A stretch of 64,000 nucleotides of DNA from Centroscyllium fabricii (lineage: Eukaryota), in NCBI GenBank assembly GCA_051313645.2, contig JBNRSN020000018.1, positions 113,212,001 through 113,276,000 on the forward strand, written 5' to 3'. The notes beneath the pieces are model-generated. The model was not told the origin of the DNA and did no database searches. It saw only the letters and a program-made list of their open reading frames with translations. A program made the translations under genes and the position numbers. Of this stretch, positions 1-50,000 are shown piece after piece. Position 1 is the stretch's first letter. Every line of letters begins with the position of its first letter.

Positions 1-1974
1 GTTGCACACTCAGTTATGCACAGTGACACACTCAGTGAAACATTCAGTGACACACTCAGCAACAAACAGTGACATGCTTGGTGACACGCTCGGTGACACA
101 CTCAGTGACACACTCAGTGACACTCAGTGACACATTCAGTGACACACACACCGTAACAAACTGTGACAAACTCCGAGACACACTCACGGTGACACACTCC
201 GAGACACACACATAGTGATACATTCAGTGACACACACAGTTACAAACAGTGGCACCCTCAGTGACACACTCAGTGACACACACACAGTTGCAAACAGTGC
301 ACACTCAGTGACACACTCAGTGACCAGTGACACACATGCAGTGACAAACACACAGTGACTCACTCAGTGACACACACAGTAGCAAACACTGACTCACCCA
401 GTGACACAGACTCAGTGACACACACATAGTAACAGTGACACACTCAGTGACATACTCAGTGACACACTCAGTGACACACACAGTGGCACACACAGTGGCA
501 CACTCAGTGGGACACACACAGTAGCAAACAGTGACTCACTCAGTGACACACACTCAGTGACAAACACAGAATGACACACTCAGTGACTCACACACAGTAA
601 GAGTGACACACTTAGTGACACACTCATGACACTCACACAGTAACACACAGTGACACACTTGCTGACACTCACAGTAACAAACAGTGACACACACAGTGAC
701 GGCACTCAGTGATACACTGGGTGACACAAATGCAGTTACATGCTTAGTAACACACTCAGTTGCACACTCAGTGATGCAGTGACACACTCAGTGAAACATT
801 CAGTGACACACTCAGTAACACTCAGTGACACACTCAGTGACACACTCAGTGACACACACAGTAACAAACAGTGACACACTCAGAGACACGCGCAGGGTGA
901 CACACTACGAGACACACACATAGTGATACACTCAGCGACACACACACACAGTTACAAACAGTGACACACTCAGTGACACACTCAGTAACACACACACAGT
1001 TGCAAACAGTGACACGCTCAGTGACACAGTGACTGATTAAGTGACACAAACAGTGACACACACATAGTAACAAACAGTGACACACTCAGTGGCACACTCA
1101 GTGACACACTCAGTAACACACACACAGTTGCAAACAGTGACACGCTCAGTGACACAGTGACTGATTCAGTGACACAAACAGTGACACACACATAGTAACA
1201 AACAGTGACACACTCAGTGACCAGTGACACACATGCAGTGACACACACTCAGTGACACATTCTCAGTGACACACACTCAGTGACTCTCAGTGACACACTC
1301 AGTGACTCATTCAATGACACACTCAGTGACACACTCAGTGACACACACTCAGTGACACAAACAGTGACTCACTCAGTGACACAGACTCAGTGACACACAT
1401 ATAGTAACAGTGACACACACAGTGACACACTCAGTGACACACTAACTGACAAACATACAATGACATATTCCGTGACACACTAAGTGACACACTCAGTAAG
1501 AGTGACACACTTAGTGACACACTCAGTAAGAGTGACACACTTAGTGACACACTCAGTGACACACACACAGTAACAAACTCAGTGACACACACAGTAACAA
1601 ACAGTGGCACACAGTAACAGTGACACACTTAGTGGCGGACTCAATGACACACACACAGTAACAAATAGTGACACACTTAGTGACACACACAGTGACAGAC
1701 TCAGTGATACACTTGGTGACACACATGCAGTTACACGCTCAGTGACGCACACAGTGACAAACACAGAGTGTCACACACAATGACACAATCAGTGACACAC
1801 ACTGAGACACACTCAGTAACACAGTCAGTGACACACTCAGGCACAGTGACACTCAGTGAAACATTCAGTGGCACACTCAGTGACACACTCAGTGACACAC
1901 ACAGAGTAACAAACAGTAACAAACTCAGAGACACACTCAGTGACTCACACTCAGTGACATAGTCAGTGACAGTT

Positions 1975-2448
1975 TTTTTTTATTATTCATTGATGGGATG
2001 TGGGCGTCGCTGGCTGGCTAGGCCTGCATTTATTGCCCATCCCTAATTGCCCTTGAGAAGATGGTGGTGAGCCGCCTTCTTGAACCGCTGCAGTCTTATT
2101 GTTTGTCACGTTTGTTTACAACTGAGTGGTGTGCTAGGCCATTTCAGAGGGCATTAAGAGTCAACCACATTGCTGTGGGTCTGGAGTCACATGTAGGCCA
2201 GACCAGGTAAGGACGGCAGATTTCCTTCCCTAAAGGACATTAGTGAACCAGATGGGTTTTTGCAACAATCGACAATGGTATCATGGTCGCCATTACTAAG
2301 ACTAACATTTAATTCCAGAATTAAACTGAATTGAATTTAAATTCCACCAGCTGCCGTGGTGGGATTTGAACCCATATCCTCAGAGCATTTGACTGAGCCT
2401 CTGAGCTTACTAGTCTAGTGACATAACCATTATGCCACCACCTCCCCT
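1975..2448 (-). mobile_element. tRNA-derived SINE with LINE-like 3' tail, copy 1
   Basis: Reverse complement of 18927-19395. B-box-like GGTTCAAATCC, A-rich tail, AGTT direct repeats at 1971-1974 and 2449-2452. Confidence 0.9.
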
Positions 2449-4504
2449 AGTTACTCAATGACACACAGTGACACACACTCGGTAACACACACACAGTGAC
2501 AAACACAGTGACACACACTGTGAGACACAGTAACACACACAGTAACACACACTCAATAACACATTCAGTTACACACTCAGTAACACACACAGTGATGCAC
2601 TCAGTGACACACACACATTAACAAACAGTGACACACTCAGTGACACACTCAGTGACACACACAGTGGCACACACAGTGGGACACTCCGTGGGACACACAC
2701 AGTAGCAAACAGTGTCTCACTCAGTGACACACACTCAGTGACACACACACACAGTAACAGTGACACACACTCAGTGGCAAACACAGAATCACATACTCAG
2801 TGACACACTCAGTGACACACACACAGTAAGAGTGACACACTTAGTGACACAGTCAGTGACACTCACACAGTAACAAACAGTGACACACTTGGTGACACTC
2901 ACAGTAACAAACAGTGACACACACAGTGACGGCACTCAGTGATACACTCGGTGACACAAATGCAGTTACATGCTTAGTAACACACTCAGTTGCACACTCA
3001 GTGATGCACAGTGACACACTCAGTGAAACATTCAGTGACACACTCAGTAACACTCAGTGACACACTCAGTGACACACTCAGTGACACACACACAGTAACA
3101 AACAGTGACAAACTCAGAGACACACGCACGGTGACACACTCCGAGACACATACATAGTGATACACTCAGCGACACACACCCAGTTACAAACAGTGGCACA
3201 CTCAGTGACACACTCAGTGACACACACACAGTTGCAAACAGTGACACACTCAGTGACACACACAGTTACAAGCAGTGACACACTCAGTGACACACACAGT
3301 TACAAACAGTGGCACACTCAGTGACACACTCAGTGACACACACACAGTTGCAAACAGTGGCACACTCAGTGACACACACAGTTACAAGCAGTGACACACT
3401 CAGTGACACACACACAATTACAAACAGTGGCACACTCAGTGACACACTCAGTGACACACACACAGTTGCAAACAGTGACACACACAGTTACAAGCAGTGA
3501 CACACTCAGTGACACACACAGTTACAAACAGTGACACACTCAGTGACACACTCAGTGACACAGTGACTAATTCAGTGACACAAACAGTGACACACACATA
3601 GTAACAAACAGTGAAACACTCAGTGACCAGTGACACACACTCAGTGACACATTCTCAGTGACACATTCTCAGTGACACACACTCAGTGACACACTCCGTG
3701 ACTCATTCAATGACACACTCAGTGACACAGTCAGTGACACACACTCAGTGACACACACTCAGTGACACAAACAGTGACTCACTCAGTGACACAGACTCAG
3801 TGACACACTCATAGTAACAGTGACACACACAGTGACACACTCAGTGACCCATTCAATGACACACTCAGTGACACACTCAGTGACACACACTCGGTGACAC
3901 AAACAGTGACTCACTCAGTGACACAGACTCAGTGACACACACATAGTAACAGTGACACACACAGTGACACACTCAGTGACACACTAACTGACAAACATAC
4001 AATGACATATTCCGTGACACACTAAATGACACACTCAGTAAGAGTGACACACTTAGTGACACACTCAGTAAGAGTGACACACTTAGTGACACACTCAGTG
4101 ACACACACAGTAACAATCTCAGTGACACACACAGTAACAAACAGTGGCACACAGTAAGAGTGACACACTTAGTGGCGGACTCAATGACACACACACAGTA
4201 ACAAATAGTGACACACTTAGTGACACACACAGTGACAGACTCAGTGATACACTTGGTGACACACATGCAGTTACACGCTCAGTGACGCACACAGCGACAA
4301 ACACAGAGTGTCACACACAATGACACAATCAGTGACACACACTGAGACACACTCAGTAACACAGTCAGTGACACACTCAGGCACAGTGAAACATTCAGTG
4401 ACACACTCAGTGACACACTCAGTGACTCACACAGAGTAACAAACAGTAACAAACTCAGAGACACACTCAGTGACTCACACTCAGTGACATAGTCAGTGAC
4501 AGTT

Positions 4505-4977
4505 TTTTTTTATTATTCATTGATGGGATGTGGGCGTCGCTGGCTGGCTAGGCCTGCATTTATTGCCCATCCCTAATTGCCCTTGAGAAGATGGTGGTGA
4601 GCCGCCTTCTTGAACCGCTGCAGTCTTATTGTTTGTCACGTTTGTTTACAACTGAGTGGTGTGCTAGACCATTTCAGAGGGCATTAAGAGTCAACCACAT
4701 TGCTGTGGGTCTGGAGTCACATGTAGGCCAGACCAGGTAAGGACGGCAGATTTCCTTCCCTAAAGGACATTAGTGAACCAGATGGGTTTTTGCAACAATC
4801 GACAATGGTATCATGGTCGCCATTACTAAGACTAATATTTAATTCCAGAATTAAACTGAATTGAATTTAAATTCCACCAGCTGCCGTGGTGGGATTTGAA
4901 CCCATATCCTCAGAGCATTTGACTGAGCCTCTGGCTTACTAGTCTAGTGACATAACCACTACGCCACCGCCTCCCCT
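4505..4977 (-). mobile_element. tRNA-derived SINE, copy 2 (duplicated with the satellite)
   Basis: About 6 differences from copy 1, identical flanks, same AGTT TSD, offset 2530 bp. Confidence 0.9.
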
Positions 4978-7900
4978 AGTTACTCAATGACACACAGTGA
5001 CACACACTCAGTAACACACACACAGTGACACACAGTAACACACACAGTAACACACACTCAATAACACATTCAGTTACACACTCAGTAACACACACAATGA
5101 TGCACGCAGTGACACACACACATTAACAAACAGTGACACACTCAGTGACACTCTTCAGTGACACACACAGTGACACACTCTGACATACACAGTAACACAC
5201 TGACACACACAGTAACGCACTCAGTGACACAGAGATGCATTCAGTCACACACACAATGACACACTCAGTCACACACACTCAGTCACACACATTGACAGTG
5301 ACACACACTCAGTGACACGCACTGATTGACACACACTCAGTGACACACACTCAGTGACACACACTCATTGACACACACACAGTGACACACACAGTGACAC
5401 ACACTCAGTGACACACTCAGTGACACACACTCAGTGACACATTCAGTTACACGCTCAGTAACACATACAGTGATGCACTCAGTGACACACACACATTAAC
5501 AAACAGTGAAACACTTAGTGACACTCTTCAGTGACACACAGAGTTCGACACTCAGTGACACACTCCGTGACACACACTCCATGACACACACTCCGTGACA
5601 CACCCAGTGACACACAAATTGACAGTGACACACTCACAGTGACACACACACAGTGACACACACACAGTGATACACTCCCAGTGTCACACACACAGTGACA
5701 CACACACAGTGACACACACAGTGACACACTCACAGTGACACACACACAGTGACACACACACAGTGACACACTCCCAGTGACACACTCCCAGTGACACACA
5801 CATTGACACACTCCCAGTGACACACACACAGTGACACACACTCAGTGACACTCTCAACTCACACTCAGTGACACACCGTGACACACCATGACACACCGTG
5901 ACAGAGTGACACACAGTGACACACACTCTGTGACACACAGTGACTCACACTCAGTGGCACGCTCAGTGACACACTCAGTGACACACACAGTAACACACAC
6001 AGTGACACACTCAGTGACACACTCAGTGACACACACACAGTGATAAACAGTGACACGCTCGGTGACACAGTGGCCCACACACAGTAACAAATAGTCAGTG
6101 ACAGTTACTCAATGACACTCAGTGACACACACTCAGTAATACACACACAGTGACACACTCAGTGACACACTCAGTGACACACACTCAGTAACACACACAG
6201 TGACACACTCAGTGACACACACTCAATAACACACACAGTTACACACTCAGTGACACACACTCAATAACACATTCAGTTACACGCTCAGTAACACACACCT
6301 TGATGCACTCAGTGACACACACACATTAACAGTGAAACACTCAGTGACACACACTCCGTGACACACACTCCGTGACACACAGCCGTGACACACACTCCAT
6401 GACACACACTCCATGACACACACTCCATGACACACACTCCGTGACACACACTCCATGACACACACTCAGTAACACTCAGTGGCTCACACTCAGTGACACA
6501 TTCTCAGTGACATACAATGACACACACTCAGTGACACACTCTCAGTGACACACTCTCAGTGACACACTCTCAGTGACACACTCTCAGAGACACACACTCA
6601 GTAACACTCAGTGGCTCACACTCAGTGACACATTCTCAGTGACACACACAGTAACAAACAGTAACAAACTCAGAGACACACTCACAGTGACACACTCAGA
6701 GACACACTCAGTGACACACACACAGTTACAAACAGTGACACACCCAGTGCCACACACACAGTGACACACACAGTGACACACTCAGTGCCACACACACAGT
6801 GACACACAGTGACACACACAGTAACAAACAGTGACACACTAAGTGTCACACACACAGTAACAAACTGTGACACACTCAGTAACACACTCAGTGACACACA
6901 CTCAGTAACACACACACAGTGTCACACTCAATTTATCATTCAGCGACACACACAGTGACACACTCAGTGTCACACACACAGTAACAAACAGTGACACACT
7001 CAGTAACACACTCAGTGACACACACTCAGTAACACACACACAGTGTCACACTCAATTTACCATTCAGCGACATACACAGTGACACACTCAGTAACATACT
7101 CAATGAAACATTCAGTGACACATAGTGACACACTCGGTGACACACTCTGACACACAGTGATGCAGTCCATGACACACACACATTAACAAACAGTGGTTCA
7201 CTCAGTGACACACACAGTGACACACACAGAGACACATTCAGTGACACACACTCAGTGACACACACACAGTAACACATGCATAGTCACTAACACATAGTGA
7301 CACACTCAGTGACACACACTCAGAGACACATTCAGTGACACACACTCAGTGACACACACAGTGACACATGCATAGTCACTAACAGAGTGACACACTCAGT
7401 GACACATTTAGTGACACACACTCAGTGACACAGAAAATGTGACACACTCAATAACACACTCAGTGACACACACAGAGACACAGTCAGTGACACACACACA
7501 GAAACAGTGATACACTCAGTTGCAGACTCAGTGACACGCACACTAACAGTGACACACACAGAGTAACAAACAGTAACAAACTCAGAGACACACTCACAGT
7601 GACACACACAGTAACACACTCAGTGACACACACAGTAACAGTGACACATTCAGAGAGACACAAAGTTACACATTCAGTGCCACACTCAGAGTCACACTCA
7701 GTGTCACACTCAGTGACACACACTCAGTGACACACACTGAGTTTTTCATTCAGTGACACACACAGTGATACACTCAGTAATATACTCAGTGAAACATTCA
7801 GTGACACATTGTGACACAGTCAGTGACACACTCTGACACACACAGTGATGCAGTCCATGATACACACACATTAACAAACAGTGGTTCATTCAGTGACACT

Positions 7901-10253
7901 CTCAGTGACACACTCTCAGTGACACACAGTGACACACACAGTGACACACACAGTGACACACTCTCAGTGACACACAGTGACACAGTGACACACACAGTGA
8001 CACACACTCAGTGACACACACTGTAACACACACTCAGTGACACACTCAGTGACTCACACTCAGTGACATAGTCCGTGACAGTTACTCAATAACACACAGT
8101 GACATGCACTCAGTAACACACACAGTGACACACACAGTGAGACACAGTAACACATACAGTGACACACTCAATAACACATTCAATTACACGCTCAGTAACA
8201 CACAGTGACACACTCTGACATACACAGTAACACACTCTGACACACAGTAACGCACTCAGTGACACAGAGAAGGACACAGTGACACACACAATGACACACA
8301 CTCAGTCACACACATTGACAGTGACACACACTCAGTCACACACTCATTGACACACACACAGTGACACACTCAGTGACACACACTAAGTGACACATTCAGT
8401 TACACACTCAGTAACACACACAGTGATGCACTCAGTGACACACACACATTAACAAACAGTGACACACTCAGTGACACACTCACTGACACACTCCGTGACA
8501 CACACTCAGTGACACACTCTGTGACACACACTCAGTGACACACACTCAGTGACACACTCAGTGACAGTGACAAACTCACAGTGACACACACACAGTGACA
8601 CACTCCCAGTGACACACAGTGACACACACAGTGACACACACAGTGAGACACAGTGACACACACTCAATAACACATTCATTTACACGCTCAGTAACACACA
8701 GTGACACACTCTGACATACACAGTAACACACTCTGACACACAGTAACGCACTCAGTGACACAGAGAAGGACACAGTGACACACACAATGACACACACTCA
8801 GTCACACACATTGACAGTGACACACACTCAGTCACACACTCAGTGACACACACTAAGTGACACATTTAGTTACACACTCAGTAACACACACAGTGATGCA
8901 CTCAGTGACACACACACATTAACAAACAGTGACACACTCCGTGACACACACTCAGTGACACACTCCGTGACACACACTCAGTGACACACTCCGTGACACA
9001 CACTCAGTGACACACTCAGTGACAGTGACAAACTCACAGTGACACACACACAGTGACACACTCCCAGTGACACACAGTGACTCACACTCAGTGACACTCT
9101 CAACGCACACTCAGTGACACTCTCAGTGACACACCGTGACACAGTGACACACAGTGACACACAATGACACACACTCAGTGACACACTCAGTGACACTCAG
9201 TGACACACTCATTGACACACACACAGCGACACACTCAGTGACACACACTCAGTGACACATTCAGTTACACACTCAGTAACACACACAGTGATGCACTCAG
9301 TGACACACACACATTAACAAACAGTGACACACTCAGTGACACACTCAGTGACATACTCCGTGACACACACTCAGTGACACACTCCGTGACACACACTCAG
9401 TGACACACTCCGTGACACACACTCAGTGACACACTCAGTGACAGTGACAAACTCACAGTGACACTCTCAACTCACACTCAGTGACACTCTCAGTGACACA
9501 CCGTGACACACCATGACACACCGTGACACAGTAACACACAGTGACACACAATGACACACACTCAGTGACACACTCAGTGACACTCAGTGACACACTCATT
9601 GACACACACAGTGACACACTCAGTGACACACACTCAGTGACACATTCAGTTACACACTCAGTAACACACACAGTGATGCACTCAGTGACACACACTCATT
9701 AACAAACAGTGACACACTCAGTGACACACTCACTGACACACTCAGTGACACATTCTGTGACACACACTCAGTGACACACTCCGTGACACACACTCAGTGA
9801 CACACTCAGTGACAGTGACAAACTCACAGTGACACACACACAGTGACACACTCCCAGTGACACACAGTAACTCACACTCAGTGACACTCTCAACTCACAC
9901 TCAGTGACACACTCAGTGACAGTGACAAACTCACAGTGACACACACACAGTGACACACTCCCAGTGACACACAGTGACTCACACTCAGTGACACTCTCAA
10001 CTCACACTCAGTGACACTCTCAGTGACACACCGTGACACACCATGACACAGTGACACACAGTGACACACACTCAGTGACACATTCATTGACACACACACA
10101 GTGACACACTCAGTGACACACACTCAGTGACACATTCAGTTACACACTCAGTAACACACACAGTGATGCACTCAGTGACACACACACATTAATAAACAGT
10201 GACACACTCAGTGACACACTGACTGACACACTCCGTGACACACACTCAGTGAC

Positions 10254-11322
10254 TGATCCTCTCGCCACCCTGGGCCGGTGAATGATCTGCTGCTGCTGCT
10301 GATGTTGCAGGCTGGGAAATGCTGGAAGTGCCTGCGACATGGCCGCTGTCAATTGATGGCTGGAGACTGACAGGAGGCCGGGGGAGGGGAGGGGAGGGGG
10401 GATCAGAGAATCCGGGAGGAGGGGGGAGCACGGTATTCCGGGGCAGGCACTGCCCCCCCCCCTCACTCCCTCCCTCCCCCATCCACCCCACCTCCCCAAG
10501 ACCCTCTTACCTGGGAGTTGGAGAGATAAGGGGTGGAGGGGGGCGGGGAGTTGAGAGGTTGCACAGGGAGAGGCCAAGTGCTCTTTAAAGTGAGTGCAGA
10601 GGGAGGGAGGTGTGAGTGAGTGTGTGAGTGAGGGGGGGCTGTGGTTGTTGAGGTGAGCCAGGGGTGTGCAAGTCTCTCTCTCTCTCACACACACACAGCT
10701 CATTGTCCTCGCTCTATTGTTGCCTTGTGTTGTTTGTCTCCAGCCGCCTTATGACCAGCCCGGGGATCTCACATCGCCCTTGACAGCAGCAGGCAACACA
10801 TCTCTCTCTCTCTCTCTGTATGCGCCACGTCGGAGACGAGAACACCAGCAACACCAGGTACGGTCTCTCCAAACTGCAGGAGACTTTTTTCTTTAACAAA
10901 AAAAAACTCCTGCCTTCCAATTTCTTTTTCCTGCCTTGATTCTCTCTGCAAAACCCCCCTTTGGTCCAGTCACTGGGAAACACACAGACAGACACAGACA
11001 GTTCCCCAGTAATCTCTCCTTTTGACAAGTACCTGCTGTTAAACGAGCACTGAGTCTGTACTCTCTCTGTCTAATTCCCTCTCTCTCTCTCTGGGTGTTT
11101 TAGTGAAAGCTGTTTTTGTTATTTTATTGTTGTTGTTGTTGCTGGAGTCGACCTCCCTCCCTCTCCTCTCCTCCCCTTCCCTTCCCTCCTCCCATTGAGT
11201 TGCCTTTCGCTGGGCGAGCCCGGGATCACCGCGACCGTTCAATCCCTGGTCGAGCGAGGAGCCAAGTCGCCGCTTTCCGCCTGGTCTTCGCGACTTCCAC
11301 CCTAAACAAGACGGAGGTTAGC
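10254..11322. promoter_or_regulatory. CpG/GC-rich promoter and probable non-coding first exon of an unidentified gene
   Basis: Unique sequence with G-tracts, (CT)n/(GT)n microsatellites, raised CpG (11210-11300) and a + strand donor-like GAG|GTTAGC at 11316/11317. No recognisable protein. Confidence 0.45.
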
Positions 11323-12343
11323 AGTCTGTTGTGCAGTTTCCCTGCGGATTGTCTTGGCCCCGGTATCTTAATTGCTTTTTTTAAAGAGTTAAAATGTGTT
11401 ATTTTTGTGGGGGGGGGGGGGCAGATTTCACGTGGGCTGAAGGTTGCTGAGATGGTTCGAGTCCCTCGACACGTGGATATCTTAGAAATCGACAAGAATC
11501 AGGGACGAGTTTATTGCAAGGGTTCGATGGGGCATTTTACAAGACGCTTGATCCTGCTGGTTACTTGGACTGCTGATCTGGAAACGGTGGGGGGGGGGGG
11601 GGTCTCTGCGTTTTTTTTAAAAAAAAGTTGCTTTAAAAAAAAAATCTGGTGCAGACAAAAAACTATTTGCCTCATTCCTGCTTTTGTTTGCGCTTATAAT
11701 GGGAGAGCGCGGAATGAATTGAGGGCTAACAATGGAGCTGAAATAAGCACAAAGCGGCGAAGAAATGAAGTATATAGAAAGAGAATTATCATATAGTGTT
11801 GAGAACGTAATGAAAGGTCAGTCTAGCTGCACACAAGCGCTTATTATGCCAGAGATGTCCTTTCATTTATTCTCTCTCTCTCTCTCTCTCACCCAACTCT
11901 CAGGACTTTTAGTATCATTTGTGAAGTCCTTTTTCTTTCGATGTGAAGTCCTTTTTCTTTTAATCTTTCCTATCACCGGGAATTGGAGCCTGGATTTCAA
12001 AGCCCTGTTTCTGGAGGCGGTGTGGGAATGGGTGCGGGTTGGAGAGGATCGCTCTCTCTCTCTCTCTCTGTAACACTCAGAGCCAGTAAACAAATTCCTA
12101 TCGTGTAGCTACTTGTCCGGGTGACATTTCCATTTGTGTCACTTAAAAAGCATCCAAAGGCAGAAAGAAATGTTGGGCGAAAAATTGACGGGAGGGGAAG
12201 TTCCTCCCGCTCCCCCCTTCCTCCCTCTTTGCATTATTTTTTTTTAAACTCTGAAAATACCCTTCGGGGATTTGCATTAAAAGCAAGTTGTTAAAAGTGG
12301 CAAACGGTGCTGCCTTTTTTTCCGCGATTTCTAACTTTACTGG

Positions 12344-12518
12344 CCATGATGTGGAAGTGCCGGTGTTGGACTGGGGTGGACAAATGCAAGAAGTCTCACA
12401 ACACCAGGTTATAGTCCAAGAGTTTTATTTGAAATCCCTTGGGGCAGACGCTCCGAAAGCTTGTGATTTCAAATAAAACTGTTGGACTATAACCTGGTGT
12501 TGTGTGACTTCTTGCATT
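12344..12518. mobile_element. Penelope-like element terminus (family A), partial inverted pLTR
   Basis: Same sequence as 27748-28245 and 45445-45814. Internal inversion. 12-bp TSD TAACTTTACTGG at 12332-12343 and 12519-12530. The hammerhead CUGA box is truncated. Confidence 0.8.
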
Positions 12519-13007
12519 TAACTTTACTGGAAGCCCCTATCGTTTGCGCCGATCTCTTTGATCGGAGGAGGGGAACCGTTTGAAGCGCAGATGGGGAAAG
12601 TTTTGAATGAGAAAAGTTTCTGAGCGGCGCGTTGATCAGCCGAGTGGTTTGTGCCACCCCACCTTGTCCAAGGCTGTTTGCGATGCTCGCTTTGGCCATT
12701 TCACACCCAGCCTTCTGCCTGACGGGCATCTGATCGCCCCTCCAAATGCTTTCACTTTTAAGATCTCGCCTTTATTATGTAAAAAAAAGGCAATTAGAGT
12801 TGTATCTGTTTGTTTTAAACAAAAATGCCTGTTAATTGGCGTGATCAAAAACCTCTTCCTTGTAGACCTGGGCTGATTGCTTTGTAGCGACTCTGCATGG
12901 CACATATTGTAATTTGATGCCACTTCTGTTTGCAACCCGGCTCCCTCGTTAGAGAAACAAACTGTGCCTTTTATTACTAAAGTTTTCAGGATCAGACCCC
13001 TGGGCGT

Positions 13008-18295: not shown

Positions 18296-18926
18296 TGGTG
18301 GTAGAAAGCCTTACTGTGGAAAAGTCACTATACTCCTAGCTGACTATATTTCCTCATCTTTAACTAGATCTGATCCTATCCTGACATAGATCGAACTCAG
18401 ACCAACACCCCAAACACTATAACACTCCAAAGTGACATCCAACGCAGGGACTCGAACCTGCGACTGCCTGCTTGGGATCCCGGTGCTCCAGTTGATGCCA
18501 TTTAGTGATGACATATCAATTTTATCTGTTCCATCACTAAAACCTCTTCTCCATACGGTGTGAGGGTTACACTGACTGGTGACTGTCAGCGCCATTTTAC
18601 TGCTTTCTTTCAAGAGATTCCTAAGAGTGCTCTCACTTCAAAATGCACAGCTGTATACTGTCCGTTCCTTTAACTCCAGAGTGAAGTTACATTGTCTGCT
18701 TAAATTCCTGATTCCAGTTCTTTTTTGAGCCCAAGTACATTTTCTTAAAGTAAAGCCAGTCACTCTGGTATCATAGGAACAGGAGGAGGCCATTCAACCC
18801 CTCAAGCCTGTTCTGCCATTCAGTTAGACCATGGCTGCTCTGTACTTCAATTCCATTTACCCGCCTTTGCCCTAACTTCCCGACCAAAGTAACAGATGAC
18901 ACTATTAAAAAAAGTATGAAGTCCTT

Positions 18927-19395
18927 AGGGGAGGCGGTGGTTTAGTGGTTATGTCACTAGACTAGTAAGCCAGAGGCTCAGTCAAATGCTCTGAGGATAT
19001 GGGTTCAAATCCCACCACGGCAGCTGGTGGAATTTAAATTCAATTCAGTTTAATTCTGGAATTAAATGTTAGTCTTAGTAATGGCGACCGTGATACCATT
19101 GTCGATTGTTGCAAAAACCCATCTGGTTCACTAATGTCCTTTAGGGAAGGAAATCTGCCGTCCTTACCTGGTCTGGCCTGCATGTGACTCCAGACCCACA
19201 GCAATGTGGTTGACTCTTAATGCCCTCGGAAATGGCCTAGCAAGCCACTCAGTTGTAAACAACCGCTACGAAAAACAATAAGACTGCAGCGGTTCAAGAA
19301 GGCGGCTCACCACCATCTTCTCAAGGGCAATTAGGGATGGGCACTAAATGCAGGCCGAGCCAGCCAGCCCATCAATGAATAAAAAAAATAAAAAA
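18927..19395 (+). mobile_element. tRNA-derived SINE, copy 3 (family of 1975-2448)
   Basis: Near-identical reverse complement of the satellite-embedded copies, with a poly-A tail. Confidence 0.9.
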
Positions 19396-26683: not shown

Positions 26684-27030
26684 CAGGTTGAGCACCGGTA
26701 ATCCGGCACCCGATGGTCCGGCAGCTTCAGTGGTCCGGCACGATTGGAAACCGGCGCTCTTCAGTTTGCGGAGCAGCCGCCCGGTGGCGCCACCATTTCC
26801 CGCGAAGGGTGAGCGAGCGCCAAAGGCGTCGGGCGTTTGGGCTTCTGTTTTTTTAGGCCTTGTAAGTGTTCTATCACCGGGCTCCCTCCCGGGGAGTGTT
26901 CTACCCGCGCGCTCCGGGCCACGGGGAGTGTTCTACTGCCCGCTCCCCCCGAACCTTCAGTGGATTGGAATTTTCAGTGGTCCGGCACCGGCCTGGTCCC
27001 GAGGATGCCGGATTAACGGTGCTCAACCTG
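26684..27030. mobile_element. Tigger-like MITE, subfamily A (opposite orientation), inside a CR1 tail
   Basis: CAGGTTGAGCACCG TIRs. Flanks TG/TA. Carries two copies of the internal 32-bp unit. Confidence 0.88.
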
Positions 27031-27832
27031 TAGTAACTTTCAAAAGAGAATCAGATATATACGTGAAATGGAAAGATTTGCAGGGCTACGGGAAAATAGC
27101 AGGGGGAGAGTGGGACTAATTGGGTAGCTTTTTCAGAGAGCCAGCACAGACACGATGGGCTGAATGGCCTCCTCCTATGCTGTATGAGTCTGTGATGATT
27201 CTATGACTTCTGTTCGCTAATGGCAAAAATACGATAAATTAAGATTTAATTGCAGCCCCCATACATTTGGGAAACAAGTGATTATTTTGAAAAGAATATT
27301 TGAAAGAGTTCAGCAAACCCTACTGTCTTATACACTTCATTTAGCAAAGGCAACACATAAGCATCAGTGCATGTATGATCCCCTTTTCTTATCAGCAGCC
27401 TAGTGAAGCAACATCTGTAATATATCTTACTACAGAGAAACATTGTTGCTGAGAGGATTTTGAGAGGATTAATCTTGGTACATGTGCACATCATGCCACT
27501 GTTGAATAGATGAGTGCTTATGCATATGTGCCATACACAGTGAGGGCTGAATCACATTAGTGCTCCGAAGCATCAGAACTACCCTGAAGGAGGTTTGGAG
27601 GCAAAACACTTTACCAATTAAATCTGTGATTTTCAAAGTGAAGGGCGCATGGATGTGGCCCGTTATTGGGCGCCTGACCAATGTGCGCAGACAGCCTGAA
27701 CCAGGAGGCCCGGGGTTTCCCCTCGAGCCTCATTTGAATATGCCAGATGTGGAGGTGCCGGTGTTGGACTGGGGTGGACAAATGCAAGAAGTCACACAAC
27801 ACCAGGTTATAGTCCAACAGTTTTATTTTAAA

Positions 27833-27870
27833 TCACAAGCTTTCGGAGCGTCTGCCCCTTCGTCAGGTGA
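27833..27870 (-). ncRNA. Minimal hammerhead motif (second tandem copy at 27946-27983)
   Basis: UCAC-CUGACGA-A-GGGGC(AGAC)GCUCC-GAAA-GCUU-GUGA on the minus strand. Confidence 0.72.
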
Positions 27871-28159
27871 AAGAGAAGCTGACTTAAAGAACCCCTGCAA
27901 GAAGTCACACAACACCAGATTATAGTCCAACAGTTTTATGTTAAATCACAAGCTTTCGGAGCGTTCGCCCCTTCGTCAGGTGGAAAGAGAGACTGACCCT
28001 GACGAAGGGGCGAACGCTCCGAAAGCTTGTGATTTAAAATAAAACTGTTGGACTATAATCTGGTGTTGTGTGACTTCTTGCAATTGTCCACCCCAGTCCA
28101 ACACCGGCACCTCCACATTAAAGAACCCCATATGTGCGTTCTTTAAGTCAGCTTCTCTT

Positions 28160-28197
28160 TCACCTGACGAAGGGGCAGAAGCTCCGAAAGCTTGTGA
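28160..28197 (+). ncRNA. Minimal hammerhead motif (upstream tandem copy at ~27995-28032)
   Basis: TCAC CTGACGA A GGGGC AGAA GCTCC GAAA GCTT GTGA: helix I UCAC/GUGA, palindromic AAGCUU helix III. Confidence 0.72.
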
Positions 28198-29282
28198 TTT
28201 AAAATAAAACTGTTGGACTATAACCTGGTGTTGTGTGACTTCTTGCATTTGAATACTCCAGAGGCAGCTTAACCATTTCAAGGATCAATTTTGGGCCCGC
28301 CTGCAGAGGCCCTTGGAGAGGCCCCGGTTGGGGTAAGGACAACAGCAGGGGTGGTGGTGGGCGGGCGGGTGGGGGGACGGTGCGGAGAGGCTGATCACGG
28401 CCTGGCAGAGGCCCTCAGGTGTGCTGTGGTGCCAGGAGGAGCACCCATGCTCATCCTGACTCTACATCGAGCTGTAAAACCATTTTTTGACTTGACTTAT
28501 TGGTAGCGGCAGTGAGGTCATAAAACCTAGGCCCCTCATTGACATATGCAAAAGGCCTAATAGGCGGCTGCCAGTGGCGCCTGAAAAATTGCCTGACCAA
28601 ATATGAGGTTGGACATATTTCAGGCATCCTCGGGCACGGGACATAACTCCGCAAAATTGGTACTTTTTAGCCCTATTTTCTGCCTGGAAAACAGGTACAA
28701 TGAGGACCAATTTCTTCCCCCACATCTTTCACATTCTTCTTTTCTTTCCAGATTTGTTGTGTGCCTTCTTCCCTCTGAAATATACCATTCTGCATCTCTG
28801 ACTAGGAGTGCAGGGAACGATAGGCTCTCAGGCCCATCAATGCCACTGGATACTTGTTGGTACAGGGTGGTTCTCCCACACATCAAGTTGAATCTCCTTT
28901 CCAATCCCCTCCCCCATCCACCAGCAGAAAGGCCTTACCTTTACTCGGCACCTTCTCAGTTGGATTTATTTCATTTGAAACCTCATCTCTGCTTCAAGCC
29001 TGACTCCTATTGCCATAGTGCTGCATATCGCGACTCTCAATTGGTGCAGCTACATTATTTTAGGCTCCTTGACTTAAATATTTCTCAGAAATTTCAAGCA
29101 CCGATATATCACAGTTCAAAGTAGTCATGTAGGATCAGTATTGGGAGATAGTCACGAAAAATTCCAATAAGGAATTCAGGAGAAACTTCTTTACTCAGAG
29201 AGTGGTGAGAATGTGGAACTCGCTACCACAGGGAGTGGTTGAGGTGAACAGCAGAGATACATTTAAGAGGAATCTAGAAATA

Positions 29283-45440: not shown

Positions 45441-45444
45441 AGCA

Positions 45445-45814
45445 AGAAGTCACACAACACCAGGTTATAGTCCAACAGCTTTATTTGAAATCACAAGCTT
45501 TCGGAGCGCTGCTCCTTCCTCAGGTGAAGTGAAGAGATGCACATCGGCACAGCATATATAGTCAAAGTCCTTTCGGGATCTTGTCTGCTTTCTTGCATCT
45601 CTGTAGAAACTTGATGTCTGTGTCGATGTGCACGATCTTCTTGGAGATCCTCTCCACTCGGAGCCGGCAGTTTGTGGTGTCGATAGTAGACATGATGTGG
45701 AGGTGCCGGTGTTGCACTGGGGTGGACAAATGTAAGAAGTCACACAACACCAGGTTACAGTCCAACAGTTTTATTTGAAATCACAAGCTTTCGGAGCGCT
45801 GCTCCTTCATCAGG
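45445..45814 (-). mobile_element. Penelope family A tandem pLTRs with the ORF start
   Basis: Hammerhead motifs at 45491-45527 and 45781-45814. MSTIDTT..IKFLQRCKKADKIPKGL resembles a Penelope ORF N-terminus. Confidence 0.8.
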
Positions 45815-45831
45815 CAAAAGAGAAGTTCATC

Positions 45832-47060: not shown

Positions 47061-50000
47061 CCAAACCAGCCCAGGCTCCACCATGTGCGTCGGCCGCTCC
47101 GGAGCGCTGCTCTTCGTCACAGACAGTGTCTCAGGCCTCCGCTTCCTCTGCGACACAGGCGCGCAGCACAACATCGTGCCAGCTCCCCCGCAGAATCCAA
47201 GCAGGGCACCCAAGGCCCACCACTCGAAGCCGCAAACGGCTCCAAGATACTCACGTTCGGTACCCGCCAGCTTACCATCAAACTAGCAGGCCACAGGTAC
47301 ACGTGGGACTTCATTACCGCGCAGGTTAGCATACCCCTACTCGGGGCCGACTTTGTGCACCCACGTGCTCCTAGTCGACGTTACCCGGCGCCGTCTGGTC
47401 GACATCCACCTCATGTCGACCATCCCTTGCTCCGCAGGCCCAGCACACCAGACCCACGCAGCAGTCCACTGCCGAGCCCGGAACTCCGACACGTACGCCA
47501 CGCTGCTCGCTGAGTTCCCGGCCCTAACCAACCCCACCTTCACAGCCCGCTCCGCCAAACACGGCGTTGAGCACCACATCACCACCACAGGCCACCCGGT
47601 CCATGCCCACGCACGCAGGCTGGACCCAGCCAAGCTGGAGATCGCGCGCGCCGAGTTCCACATCATGGAACAGCTCGGCATAATCCGCCGCTCCAGCAGC
47701 CCCTGGGCTTCCCCCCTCCACATCGCCCCCAAACCCGACGGCGGCTGGCGCCCCTGCGGAGACTACCGCCGCCTCAACAACGCCACCACCCCAGACAGGT
47801 ACCCCGTCCCCCACATCCAAGATTTTTCAGCAAGGCTAGCCGGCTGCACGATCTTTTCGAAGATCGACCTGGTATGGGGCTACCACCAAGTTCCAGTGCA
47901 CCCGGCGGACGTCCCTAAGACAGCCGTCATCACCCCATTCGGCCTGTTCGAATTCCTCCGAATGCCCTTCGGACTTAAAAATGCGGCCCAGGCCTTCCAG
48001 CGCCTCATGGACTCAGTCCTCCGGGACCTGCAGTTCACATTCGTCTATCTGGACGACATCCTGGTGGCCAGCACCTCCCCCCAGGAACACCTCACCCACC
48101 TCAGGACCCTTTTCAACCGCCTGGCCGAACACGGCCTTATCCTAAGCCCCTCCAAGTGTCGATTCGGCCTCGAGGCTATCGACTTCCTCGGCCACCACAT
48201 CTCCCAGACCGGGGCCATACCCCTGCCCTCCAAGGTGCAGGCGGTCCAGGAATTCCCCTGCCCGCACTCCATCAAGGGGCTGCAGGAATTCCTCGGGATA
48301 GTCAATTTTTACAATCGATTCATCCCCGGAGCAGCCGCTCTCATGGCCCCCCTCTATCAGGCCACCCGCGGGCAGTCTAACAAGGCTCCAGTCGAGTGGA
48401 CGGCCGAAGCCGCCACTGCCTTCACCGCAACCAAAACAGCCCTGGCCAACGCCACGCTCCTCAGCCACCCTAGGCCCAACGCCAGAGTAGCCCTCACCAC
48501 CGACCGCGCTGTCGGAGCAGTCTTTGAGCAGTGGACGGGCGACTCCTGGCAGCCACTGGCCTTTTTCAGCCGACAACTCCGGCCCCCAGAGGTCAAGTAC
48601 AGCGCCTTCGATAGGGAGCTACTCGCTCTCTACCTCGCGGTGCGCCACTTTCGCTTCCTCCTGGAGGACCGCCACTTCACAGCCTTCGTAGATCACAAGC
48701 CACTGGTATCCGCAATGGCTAAGATCTCCGAACCCTGGTCGGCCAGGCAGCAGCGCCAGCTCGCGGCCGTGTCCGAGTTCACGACCGACATCCAGCACAT
48801 TGCCGGCCGCGACAACGTGGTCGCTGACTGCCTCTCACGCCCCGCCATCGGCACAACAGCCCCCGACCACCCCCCACCGGCGGCAACCCAGCCACCGGCC
48901 ATCCCCTGCACCCCGCCGTCACAGCGCGGGCCCCACCGGCACACAAACCGTCGACCACCCCCCACGACCCACCATCGACAGCGCGGTCGCCGACAAACCC
49001 CCACCACCAGCCACCGACCACGCCTGCGCGCACTGCCTCTCGTACCCAGCCACCAACTCCGTCCAGACGGCCGTCGACTACGTCAAAATGGCGGCCGACC
49101 AACTGACCGACCCCGACCTCCTCAACCCCGCCACCAACCTCCCCGGCCTGCTCCTAGCCACCGTGGCACACGGACCCACAGCCACGGGGGTCCGCTGCGA
49201 CGTCACCCTGCCCCAACCCAGACCCGTCGTCCCCCACACATGGAGGCAACACATCTTCCAGACCCTCCATGGCCTCTCCCACCCCGGTGTCCGCGCATCT
49301 ACCAAGCTCATCTCTGCGCGATTCGTTTGGCGCGGCCTACGTAAAGATGTCCGCGCCTGGACCACCGCGTGCAATGCCTGCCAGCGCGCCAAGGTGCACA
49401 ACCACATCAAGGCACCGCTCGAACCAATCGTCGTCCCGGCCAGACGTTTCAGCCACGTTCACATTGACCTGGTCGGACCACTACCCCCATCACGTGGACA
49501 CTCATATCTGTTAACAATGGTCGACTGCACCACCCGCTGGCCCGAAGCGGTCCCCCTCAGCACGACCACCACCGCCGAACTGGCCAGGGCCTTCATCGCC
49601 ACCTGGGTCGCCCGGTTCGGCGTCCCCACCGACATCACTTCAGACAGGGGCCCCCAATTCACTTCAACCCTATGGTCAACCATCGCTCACGACCTCGGGG
49701 CAACCCTGCACCGAACCACCGCCTACCACCCACAGGCCAACGGTTCCACCGATCTTTCAAGGCCTCCCTGCGGGCCAGCCTCCAGGACGCAACCTGGACG
49801 GACCGCCTGCCCTGGGTAATGCTCGGCCTCCGCTCGGCGGCCAAAGAAGACCTACACGCCTCGGCAGCCGAGCTGGTTTATGGCCAACCACTGACTGTAC
49901 CAGGCGAGTTCGTGGCAGAAACAAACGAACTCTGGTCAGCCGAGCGCTGCCTCAGAGACTTTAACAACCAGGCAGCAGCATTCAAACCACTTCCGGTGGC

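What the first reader, a model, noticed from the sequence alone, without database searches (positions are those of the whole stretch)
27731..28262. 500-bp Penelope-derived cassette with four hammerhead ribozymes, two in tandem on each strand
Seen: motifs at 27833-27870 and 27946-27983 (minus, 113 nt apart) and at ~27995-28032 and 28160-28197 (plus, 165 nt apart), bounded by a ~17-bp TSD and non-coding. Helix II keeps GGGGC/GCUCC while its loop varies (AGAC, GAAC, AGAA). The 45-kb copies have GGAGC/GCUCC, a pairing-consistent change. Helix I is weak in the 27995 copy. Established: minimal Penelope hammerheads with palindromic helix III need tandem dimers, and tandem hammerheads in retrozymes release small RNAs that circularise. 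Inference: transcription in either direction could excise a 113- or 165-nt unit, a retrozyme-like RNA system in a shark genome.
Basis: partly seen in the sequence, partly recalled or inferred. Interest (0 to 1): 0.7.

Follow-up and report, generated by a model that had tools for sequence, protein, structure and literature searches.

The report
Penelope stub inserted inside another stub
This cassette is one short mirror-image leftover of a very common jumping gene (a Penelope-like element) sitting in the middle of a second, likely older one, so its four self-cutting-RNA motifs are real but likely line up as a by-product and are predicted to be folded shut: ordinary, not a new circular-RNA system.

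Summary
The four minimal hammerheads, their spacings and the outer duplication are real. The cassette is not one unit. An inner two-arm stub (27896-28118) has its own exact 12-bp target duplication and sits in the centre joint of an outer two-arm stub. Each same-strand 'tandem' therefore pairs one inner with one outer arm; inner arms differ from outer arms at 3 shared positions. The arms are pLTR ends of a Neptune-type Penelope-like retrotransposon (RT, CX4CxxC linker, GIY-YIG), about 41 arm fragments per Mb. The inverted-arm-plus-36-nt-tail layout is published. A read-through RNA is predicted to fold as one hairpin; the double hammerhead costs 168-212 kcal/mol more, and one plus-strand core keeps only 1 bp of helix I. 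Neither unit junction was found amplified. The one lead: six loci genome-wide share this short-end/pLTR joint, five with a duplication at the same nucleotide, each giving a lone 109-114-nt hammerhead pair. The scan already noted two-arm stubs of this kind many times elsewhere in this genome. Retrozyme reading not supported; no RNA evidence either way.

The parts
27731..27747 (.). Outer target-site duplication, left copy (17 bp, 2 mismatches to the right copy)
   Evidence: random-pair control gave 9 bp or more in 1 of 300
27747..27892 (-). Outer element, tail-bearing pLTR arm (arm positions 1-146; 36-nt tail at 27747-27782)
27833..27870 (-). Minimal type-I hammerhead, helix I 4 bp, helix II 5 bp, palindromic AGCU helix III; predicted cut after 27837
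27884..27895 (.). Inner target-site duplication, left copy (exact 12 bp; includes the CCC filler of the outer element's own inversion joint)
   Evidence: pLTR context from L027, L102, L198
27896..27997 (-). Inner element, short arm (arm positions 10-110, no tail)
27946..27983 (-). Minimal hammerhead, helix I 3 bp; predicted cut after 27950
27995..28032 (+). Minimal hammerhead truncated at the inversion joint, helix I 1 bp; predicted cut site after 28028
27998..28118 (+). Inner element, tail-bearing arm (arm positions 26-146; tail 28083-28118)
28118..28129 (.). Inner target-site duplication, right copy (exact 12 bp)
28130..28251 (+). Outer element, short arm (upstream pLTR bases plus arm positions 1-114, no tail)
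28160..28197 (+). Minimal hammerhead, helix I 4 bp; predicted cut after 28193
28246..28262 (.). Outer target-site duplication, right copy

Best explanation
The cassette is a 223-bp two-arm Penelope-like stub with its own 12-bp target duplication lying inside the centre joint of a second two-arm stub, most likely from two successive insertions, and its hammerheads are predicted to be inactive passengers. Shown: nesting, both duplications, arm kinship (inner with inner, outer with outer), family membership and abundance. Inferred from the anole PLE biochemistry: the element's RT-endonuclease nicks both strands ~12 bp apart, starts cDNA at two sites 36 nt apart (giving one short and one tailed arm), both cDNAs stop early near the ribozyme and are joined head to head. 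A later copy from a different source locus did the same at an AT-rich site in the first stub's own pLTR, which automatically puts a hammerhead 113 nt from its neighbour on one strand and 165 nt on the other. Predicted: any read-through transcript is a ~220-bp double-stranded hairpin, not a double hammerhead.
For: Exact 12-bp inner duplication, the modal length for the family (26 of 29 inverted pairs have 9-17 bp; control 1 of 300), and it contains the outer joint's filler bases. Over 84 nt: inner-inner 1 difference, outer-outer 1, inner-outer 3-5 with three shared diagnostic sites; elsewhere sister arms differ by 1.4 on average against 3.5 across loci (24 pairs). The inner unit alone (query 161-173 to 388-395) is what 35 of 39 non-self scored loci match; none matches the whole cassette (40 of 2518 candidates scored). 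Unselected 1 Mb: 41 arm fragments, 32 clusters, 9 compact inverted pairs, 0 clusters with 3 or more arms. A near-full copy with the inner-type arm carries an 836-aa frame with RVT_1 (E 3e-9), CX4CxxC and GIY-YIG/CCHH residues. Same nesting site at other loci with inner elements of other lengths. Folding: full RNA -393/-391 kcal/mol, helix II probability 0.0, forced double hammerhead +212 (plus) and +168 (minus). Layout published: PMC8557442, PMC3846280 (passages); two RT starts and both-strand nicking: PMC11167929 (main text); insertion into or next to earlier copies: PMC6765202 (passage).
Against: No empty-site allele (outer stub without the inner one, or locus without either) was seen: the listed joints are a small part of all, and inner junctions were not resolved in contigs. 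Order of events rests on the duplication alone. If a minus-strand transcript began inside the 17-nt inner joint (about 27997), both helices II form (0.97, 0.91) and the double hammerhead costs only about 14 kcal/mol, so cleavage of the 113-nt pair is not excluded. The insertion mechanism comes from a Poseidon-clade protein, not this family.
Confidence: 0.88

Rival explanations
1. Retrozyme-like system: transcription either way lets tandem hammerheads dimerise, excise 113- or 165-nt units and circularise them.
For: Two same-strand pairs with complete cores and the AGCU dimer palindrome; half-transcripts reach the dimer fold at +14 to +16 kcal/mol. The minus pair meets the loose 'two consecutive units with a hammerhead' criterion of bioRxiv 10.64898/2026.07.22.740005.
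Against: Units are chimeras of two source elements; unit junctions unique or dimer-only genome-wide; plus pair lacks helix I for one cut; read-through RNA folds shut, a start only 13 nt earlier drops the first helix II to 0.003; minimal PLE hammerheads cleave poorly even as dimers (PMC4209133), need protein (PMC11167929), and 8 of 9 frog dimers did not cleave (bioRxiv above). Units fold weakly as circles (-18.9 and -31.5 kcal/mol).
Confidence: 0.04
2. Single complex event: one integration with template switches among several PLE RNAs built all four arms at once.
For: PLEs are known for complex tandem/inverted insertions (PMC8557442); the same four-arm order recurs at L203, L206 and L207.
Against: A clean 12-bp inner duplication implies a staggered cut in finished double-stranded DNA; inner and outer arms are different subtypes; the same site is hit in a lone pLTR with a long upstream part (L198/L205).
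Confidence: 0.06
3. Assembly artefact from collapsed repeats.
For: Near-identical inverted arms are hard to assemble; inner junctions were not bridged in contigs.
Against: Both outer junctions are exact in two samples; two nested duplications and subtype-consistent arms would not arise from mis-assembly.
Confidence: 0.02

Closest known systems
Complex insertions of EN+ Penelope-like elements: 5'-truncated copy, adjacent inverted pLTR, one-sided 30-40 bp tail (PMC8557442, PMC3846280; passages read)
   Same: Head-to-head arms, 36-nt tail on one arm only, short target duplication, no coding sequence left.
   Different: Extreme truncation to pLTR only, and one such stub nested in another at a recurring nucleotide.
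Minimal type-I hammerheads of metazoan PLE pLTRs (PMC4209133; results and discussion read)
   Same: CUGANGA, extra base between 9 and 10.1, G10.1-C11.1, GAAA, palindromic 15.2-16.2 with no loop 3, helix I of about 4 bp; that paper already notes dual motifs 100-700 bp apart on opposite strands.
   Different: Four motifs in 365 bp; one has lost helix I.
Neptune-type PLE (features from PMC8557442 passages)
   Same: C-terminal GIY-YIG with two cysteines between the motifs and downstream histidines, CX4CxxC linker, RT.
   Different: Clade not placed on a tree; Nematis and Naiad also carry linker cysteines (Naiad has the EN at the N-terminus, not seen here).
Metazoan non-LTR retrozymes (PMC7229834 passages; bioRxiv 10.64898/2026.07.22.740005 parts 1-3 of 5)
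   Same: Same-strand hammerheads a short distance apart, PLE-pLTR origin, GC under 50%.
   Different: Minimal not canonical motifs, non-identical units, dimers only, flanked by full antisense copies, no expression shown.

Membership tests
EN+ Penelope-like element (remnant) | Arm is the terminal repeat of an RT plus GIY-YIG open frame | tested here: met
   L236: arm 96% identical, 3' of an 836-aa frame with RVT_1 E 3e-9; L102 frame matches Pfam GIY-YIG at E 7e-4, below the curated cut-off, 1 of 4 frames scanned
EN+ Penelope-like element (remnant) | Inverted 5'-truncated arm and one-sided 30-40 bp tail | tested here: met
   Both stubs have one arm ending near position 110-114 and one at 146; same in the other loci
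EN+ Penelope-like element (remnant) | Target-site duplication | tested here: met
   12 bp exact (inner), 17 bp with 2 mismatches (outer); 26 of 29 other pairs
Neptune clade | CX2-5CxxC linker plus CCHH in a C-terminal EN | tested here: met
   Linker reads C-x4-C-x2-C in most fetched copies, degenerate in L224, L230 and one L235 copy
Neptune clade | RT phylogeny groups with Neptune | not tested
   No reference set fetched, no tree built
Minimal type-I hammerhead | Conserved core, paired helix II, palindromic 15.2-16.2 | tested here: met
   All four motifs
Minimal type-I hammerhead | Helix I of 4-5 bp | tested here: inconclusive
   4, 3, 1, 4 bp: met by two, marginal in one, not met by the 27999 copy
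Minimal type-I hammerhead | Self-cleavage as a dimer | not testable with these tools
   Needs in vitro transcription; folding predicts it is blocked in read-through RNA
Non-LTR retrozyme | Tandem repeat of one unit, dimers to multimers | tested here: not met
   Units are chimeric and of two lengths; 6 exact joint matches genome-wide, none extended beyond a pair in the fetched 3-kb loci; 0 of 32 clusters with 3 or more arms in 1 Mb
Non-LTR retrozyme | Canonical type-I hammerhead with stem III and loop 1-loop 2 contacts | tested here: not met
   No stem-loop III; no Rfam hammerhead match
Non-LTR retrozyme | Unit moves as a unit (same unit at new sites) | tested here: not met
   Only the window covers both junction queries end to end at high identity (40 of 276 and 40 of 506 candidates scored); one other locus aligns across at 83% and is an independent nest
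Non-LTR retrozyme | Abundant unit-length linear and circular RNA | not testable with these tools
   No raw RNA reads of this organism were available (see Tried and rejected)

The most novel reading that the evidence does not exclude
This Penelope family re-inserts at one fixed nucleotide in its own pLTR, about 20 nt upstream of the hammerhead, and so repeatedly manufactures 109-114-nt same-strand hammerhead pairs. If such a pair is transcribed from inside the inversion joint it could fold as a double hammerhead and release a 113-nt RNA: a caught-in-the-act route from PLE stubs to non-LTR retrozymes. The fixed-site nesting has support (5 loci); the RNA step has none.
Probability: 0.07. Interest if true: 0.6.

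Novelty: new member of a known kind. Interest (0 to 1): 0.2.

Why it matters
As a functional RNA system it most likely does not matter. Its value is as a fossil of the poorly understood PLE integration cycle: 12-bp duplications, two fixed arm ends 36 nt apart, sister arms from one source, and repeated self-insertion at one pLTR site give in vivo counterparts to the anole in vitro results and a concrete way in which tandem hammerheads, the raw material proposed for animal retrozymes, arise without selection. It is also a warning for pipelines that call any two adjacent hammerhead units an active retrozyme.

Tried and rejected
(1) Expression: no RNA holder listed; two runs guessed as RNA, from another organism code, cover only the repeat arms and none of the flanks. 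No evidence either way. (2) Empty site: flank search found no paralogue spanning the insertion point (32 weak matches); no relatives held; joints listed are the top 15 of hundreds and come from other copies; inner junctions unresolved. (3) Idea that arms begin at the ribozyme cut (position 57): 3 of 41 arms in the 1-Mb sample did, but of the first 50 of 1366 compact joints none joined cut end to cut end, and 23 were centred on the AAGCTT palindrome (counted by eye); not supported. (4) Idea that the bases after the inner tail are template-derived: rejected, they are part of the duplication at other loci. (5) Excess of insertions at this target word: 7 of 448 tail-TAAAG joints continue with AAC, about chance; only the share that falls in pLTRs is enriched (4 of 7 against 1 of 33 background sites, Fisher p 0.002, post hoc and small). 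(6) A 66-nt tail query returned nothing because common words are skipped. (7) Rfam and Pfam on 14 of the window's 36 long frames showed no host gene near the cassette; intron status unknown. (8) The paper on dimer cleavage of PLE hammerheads (PMC5785218) is not held; only its title was seen. (9) Literature search for nested or self-insertion of Penelope pLTRs returned 0 papers; other searches. Supplements were not read; the retrozyme tables of the bioRxiv preprint (one cartilaginous fish) may list this family.

Full report
Observation. Each reads: helix I 5' strand, CUGACGA, one extra A, a 5-bp helix II, GAAA, GC, UU, cut, GUGA. This is the minimal type-I hammerhead of PMC4209133 (results and discussion read). 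A strict descriptor finds six motifs in the window and none in 40 shuffles. Helix I is 4, 3, 1 and 4 bp; the 27999 copy has lost its 5' strand at the inversion joint. Rfam has no matching model. Both outer junctions are reproduced exactly by contigs of two samples.

Anatomy. Using the left outer arm (146 nt) as a ruler, the cassette holds four arms: minus 1-146, minus 10-110, plus 26-146, plus 1-114. The middle two are bracketed by an exact 12-bp duplication (27884-27895, 28118-28129); the outer two by the 17-bp, 2-mismatch duplication. The inner duplication contains nine bases of the outer left arm plus the CCC filler that is not in the pLTR upstream sequence seen at other loci, so it was most likely cut from the finished outer joint. 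Over the 84 nt that all arms share, the inner arms differ from each other at 1 site and the outer arms at 1 site, while inner and outer differ at 3-5 sites, three of them shared. At 24 other pairs sister arms differ by 1.4 sites on average, against 3.5 across loci. The 113- and 165-nt 'units' are therefore each half inner, half outer.

Family. A search with the whole cassette scored 40 of 2518 candidates: only the window matches end to end, and 35 of the 39 other loci match just the inner 223-bp unit. Of 29 inverted pairs in those loci, 26 have a 9-17 bp duplication, mostly 12 bp; random pairs gave 9 bp or more in 1 of 300. In 100 unselected 10-kb stretches from large contigs there were 41 arm fragments in 32 clusters, 9 compact inverted pairs (5 with a duplication found) and no cluster of three or more arms; scaled to 7.2 Gb that is roughly 3 x 10^5 fragments. 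Longer pairs carry the end of a GIY-YIG frame, and L236 holds an 836-aa frame with RT (RVT_1, E 3e-9), a CX4CxxC linker and the GIY-YIG domain, followed by an arm of the inner subtype and preceded by an inverted arm. By the features in PMC8557442 (passages) this is Neptune-type; no tree was built. Inverted truncated copy, one-sided tail and short duplication are the standard PLE layout. In the anole element both target strands are nicked and extended and cDNA starts at two sites that define the tail (PMC11167929 main text); that explains the two fixed arm ends, by inference.

Does the nesting recur? An exact pattern for a short arm end joined to the start of another arm has 6 matches genome-wide: the window, L203, L205, L206, L207, L208. 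Five have a 12-13 bp duplication starting at the same nucleotide, around inner elements of about 200 to 1100 bp and of several subtypes; L208 was not resolved. Where both cores match, the same-strand spacing is 109-114 nt (5 of 6), and never more than a pair. From the tail side, 7 of 448 tail-TAAAG joints continue with AAC, no more than chance, but 4 of those 7 lie in a pLTR (a fifth is consistent, two are not) against 1 of 33 such words in the unselected sample (p 0.002). Numbers are small and the test was post hoc. Nesting at a second site (arm 78-90) appears in L002 and L003. That PLEs insert into or beside earlier copies is stated in PMC6765202 (passage); a fixed nucleotide was not found in my searches.

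Could it work as a retrozyme? A read-through RNA folds to -393 (plus) or -391 (minus) kcal/mol as one long hairpin; helix II probability is 0.0 for all four motifs, also at the moment each motif is completed, since its antisense arm is made first. Forcing the double hammerhead costs 212 and 168 kcal/mol. Half-transcripts cost only 15.6 and 14.0, but in a double hammerhead the upstream core cuts the downstream site, and on the plus strand that helix I is 1 bp, so the 165-nt unit would not be released. The minus pair (3 and 4 bp) could fold if transcription began within the 17-nt inner joint: starting at 27997 gives 0.97 and 0.91, starting at 28010 gives 0.003 for the first motif. No promoter is evident there and none was tested. 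Published minimal PLE hammerheads cleave poorly as dimers, need protein in the anole case, and 8 of 9 frog dimers did not cleave (bioRxiv 10.64898/2026.07.22.740005, parts 1-3 of 5). Expressed retrozymes carry canonical motifs in true tandem repeats (PMC7229834 passages). Junction queries found no second copy of either unit.

Earlier notes. The scan has 17 notes on Penelope hammerheads in this genome (8 shown), all calling two-arm stubs ordinary; none near this window and none on nesting. They are unchecked AI notes; one supplied the paper PMC3846280.

Verdict. Observation confirmed, interpretation partly supported. A nested pair of dead PLE stubs (confidence 0.88): new member of a known kind, interest 0.2. 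The recurring self-target is the only lead worth keeping.

Noticed in passing
G000 genome-wide (L209-L223): 1366 compact inverted joints near the cut site; 23 of the first 50 listed are perfect palindromes centred on the AAGCTT helix-III palindrome, none joins cut end to cut end. Simple annealing of two converging cDNAs at a self-complementary hexamer would explain it; an RNA-dimer role is not excluded.
   Followed up: partly
window 12343-12519: Third stub of the family: inverted pair truncated inside the hammerheads, exact 12-bp duplication.
   Followed up: yes
window 45442-45831: Two minus-strand arms of the GGAGC subtype about 290 nt apart (short, then tailed), running into a 200-N gap, so the layout cannot be resolved.
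   Followed up: partly
L002:1590-1877 and L003:1595-1936: Five-arm clusters with an inner stub at arm position 78-90; L003 has a 13-bp duplication, L002 none found. Possible second self-target.
   Followed up: partly
L004-L030: Many arms begin at arm position 17 or 22-29, just upstream of the core; these loci were selected by similarity, so the clustering may be biased.
   Followed up: no
L057:2877-4083: Several short tandem copies of the endonuclease C-terminal coding stretch inside one long inverted pair.
   Followed up: no
window 26684-27030 and from 29281: About 350-bp element with 28-bp terminal inverted repeats, with a second copy starting 2.6 kb away; MITE-like.
   Followed up: no
window 47287-49819: LTR-retrotransposon-type pol in overlapping frames: RT, RNase H, integrase. 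A similar gag-pol-like frame lies beside the PLE in L236.
   Followed up: no
window 1-10260: Degenerate C/A-rich satellite with strong strand skew, interrupted by a 480-bp repeat also found inverted at 18926-19392.
   Followed up: no
L069:2877: A different minimal hammerhead (GAAACGUU type), a second family not related to these arms.
   Followed up: no
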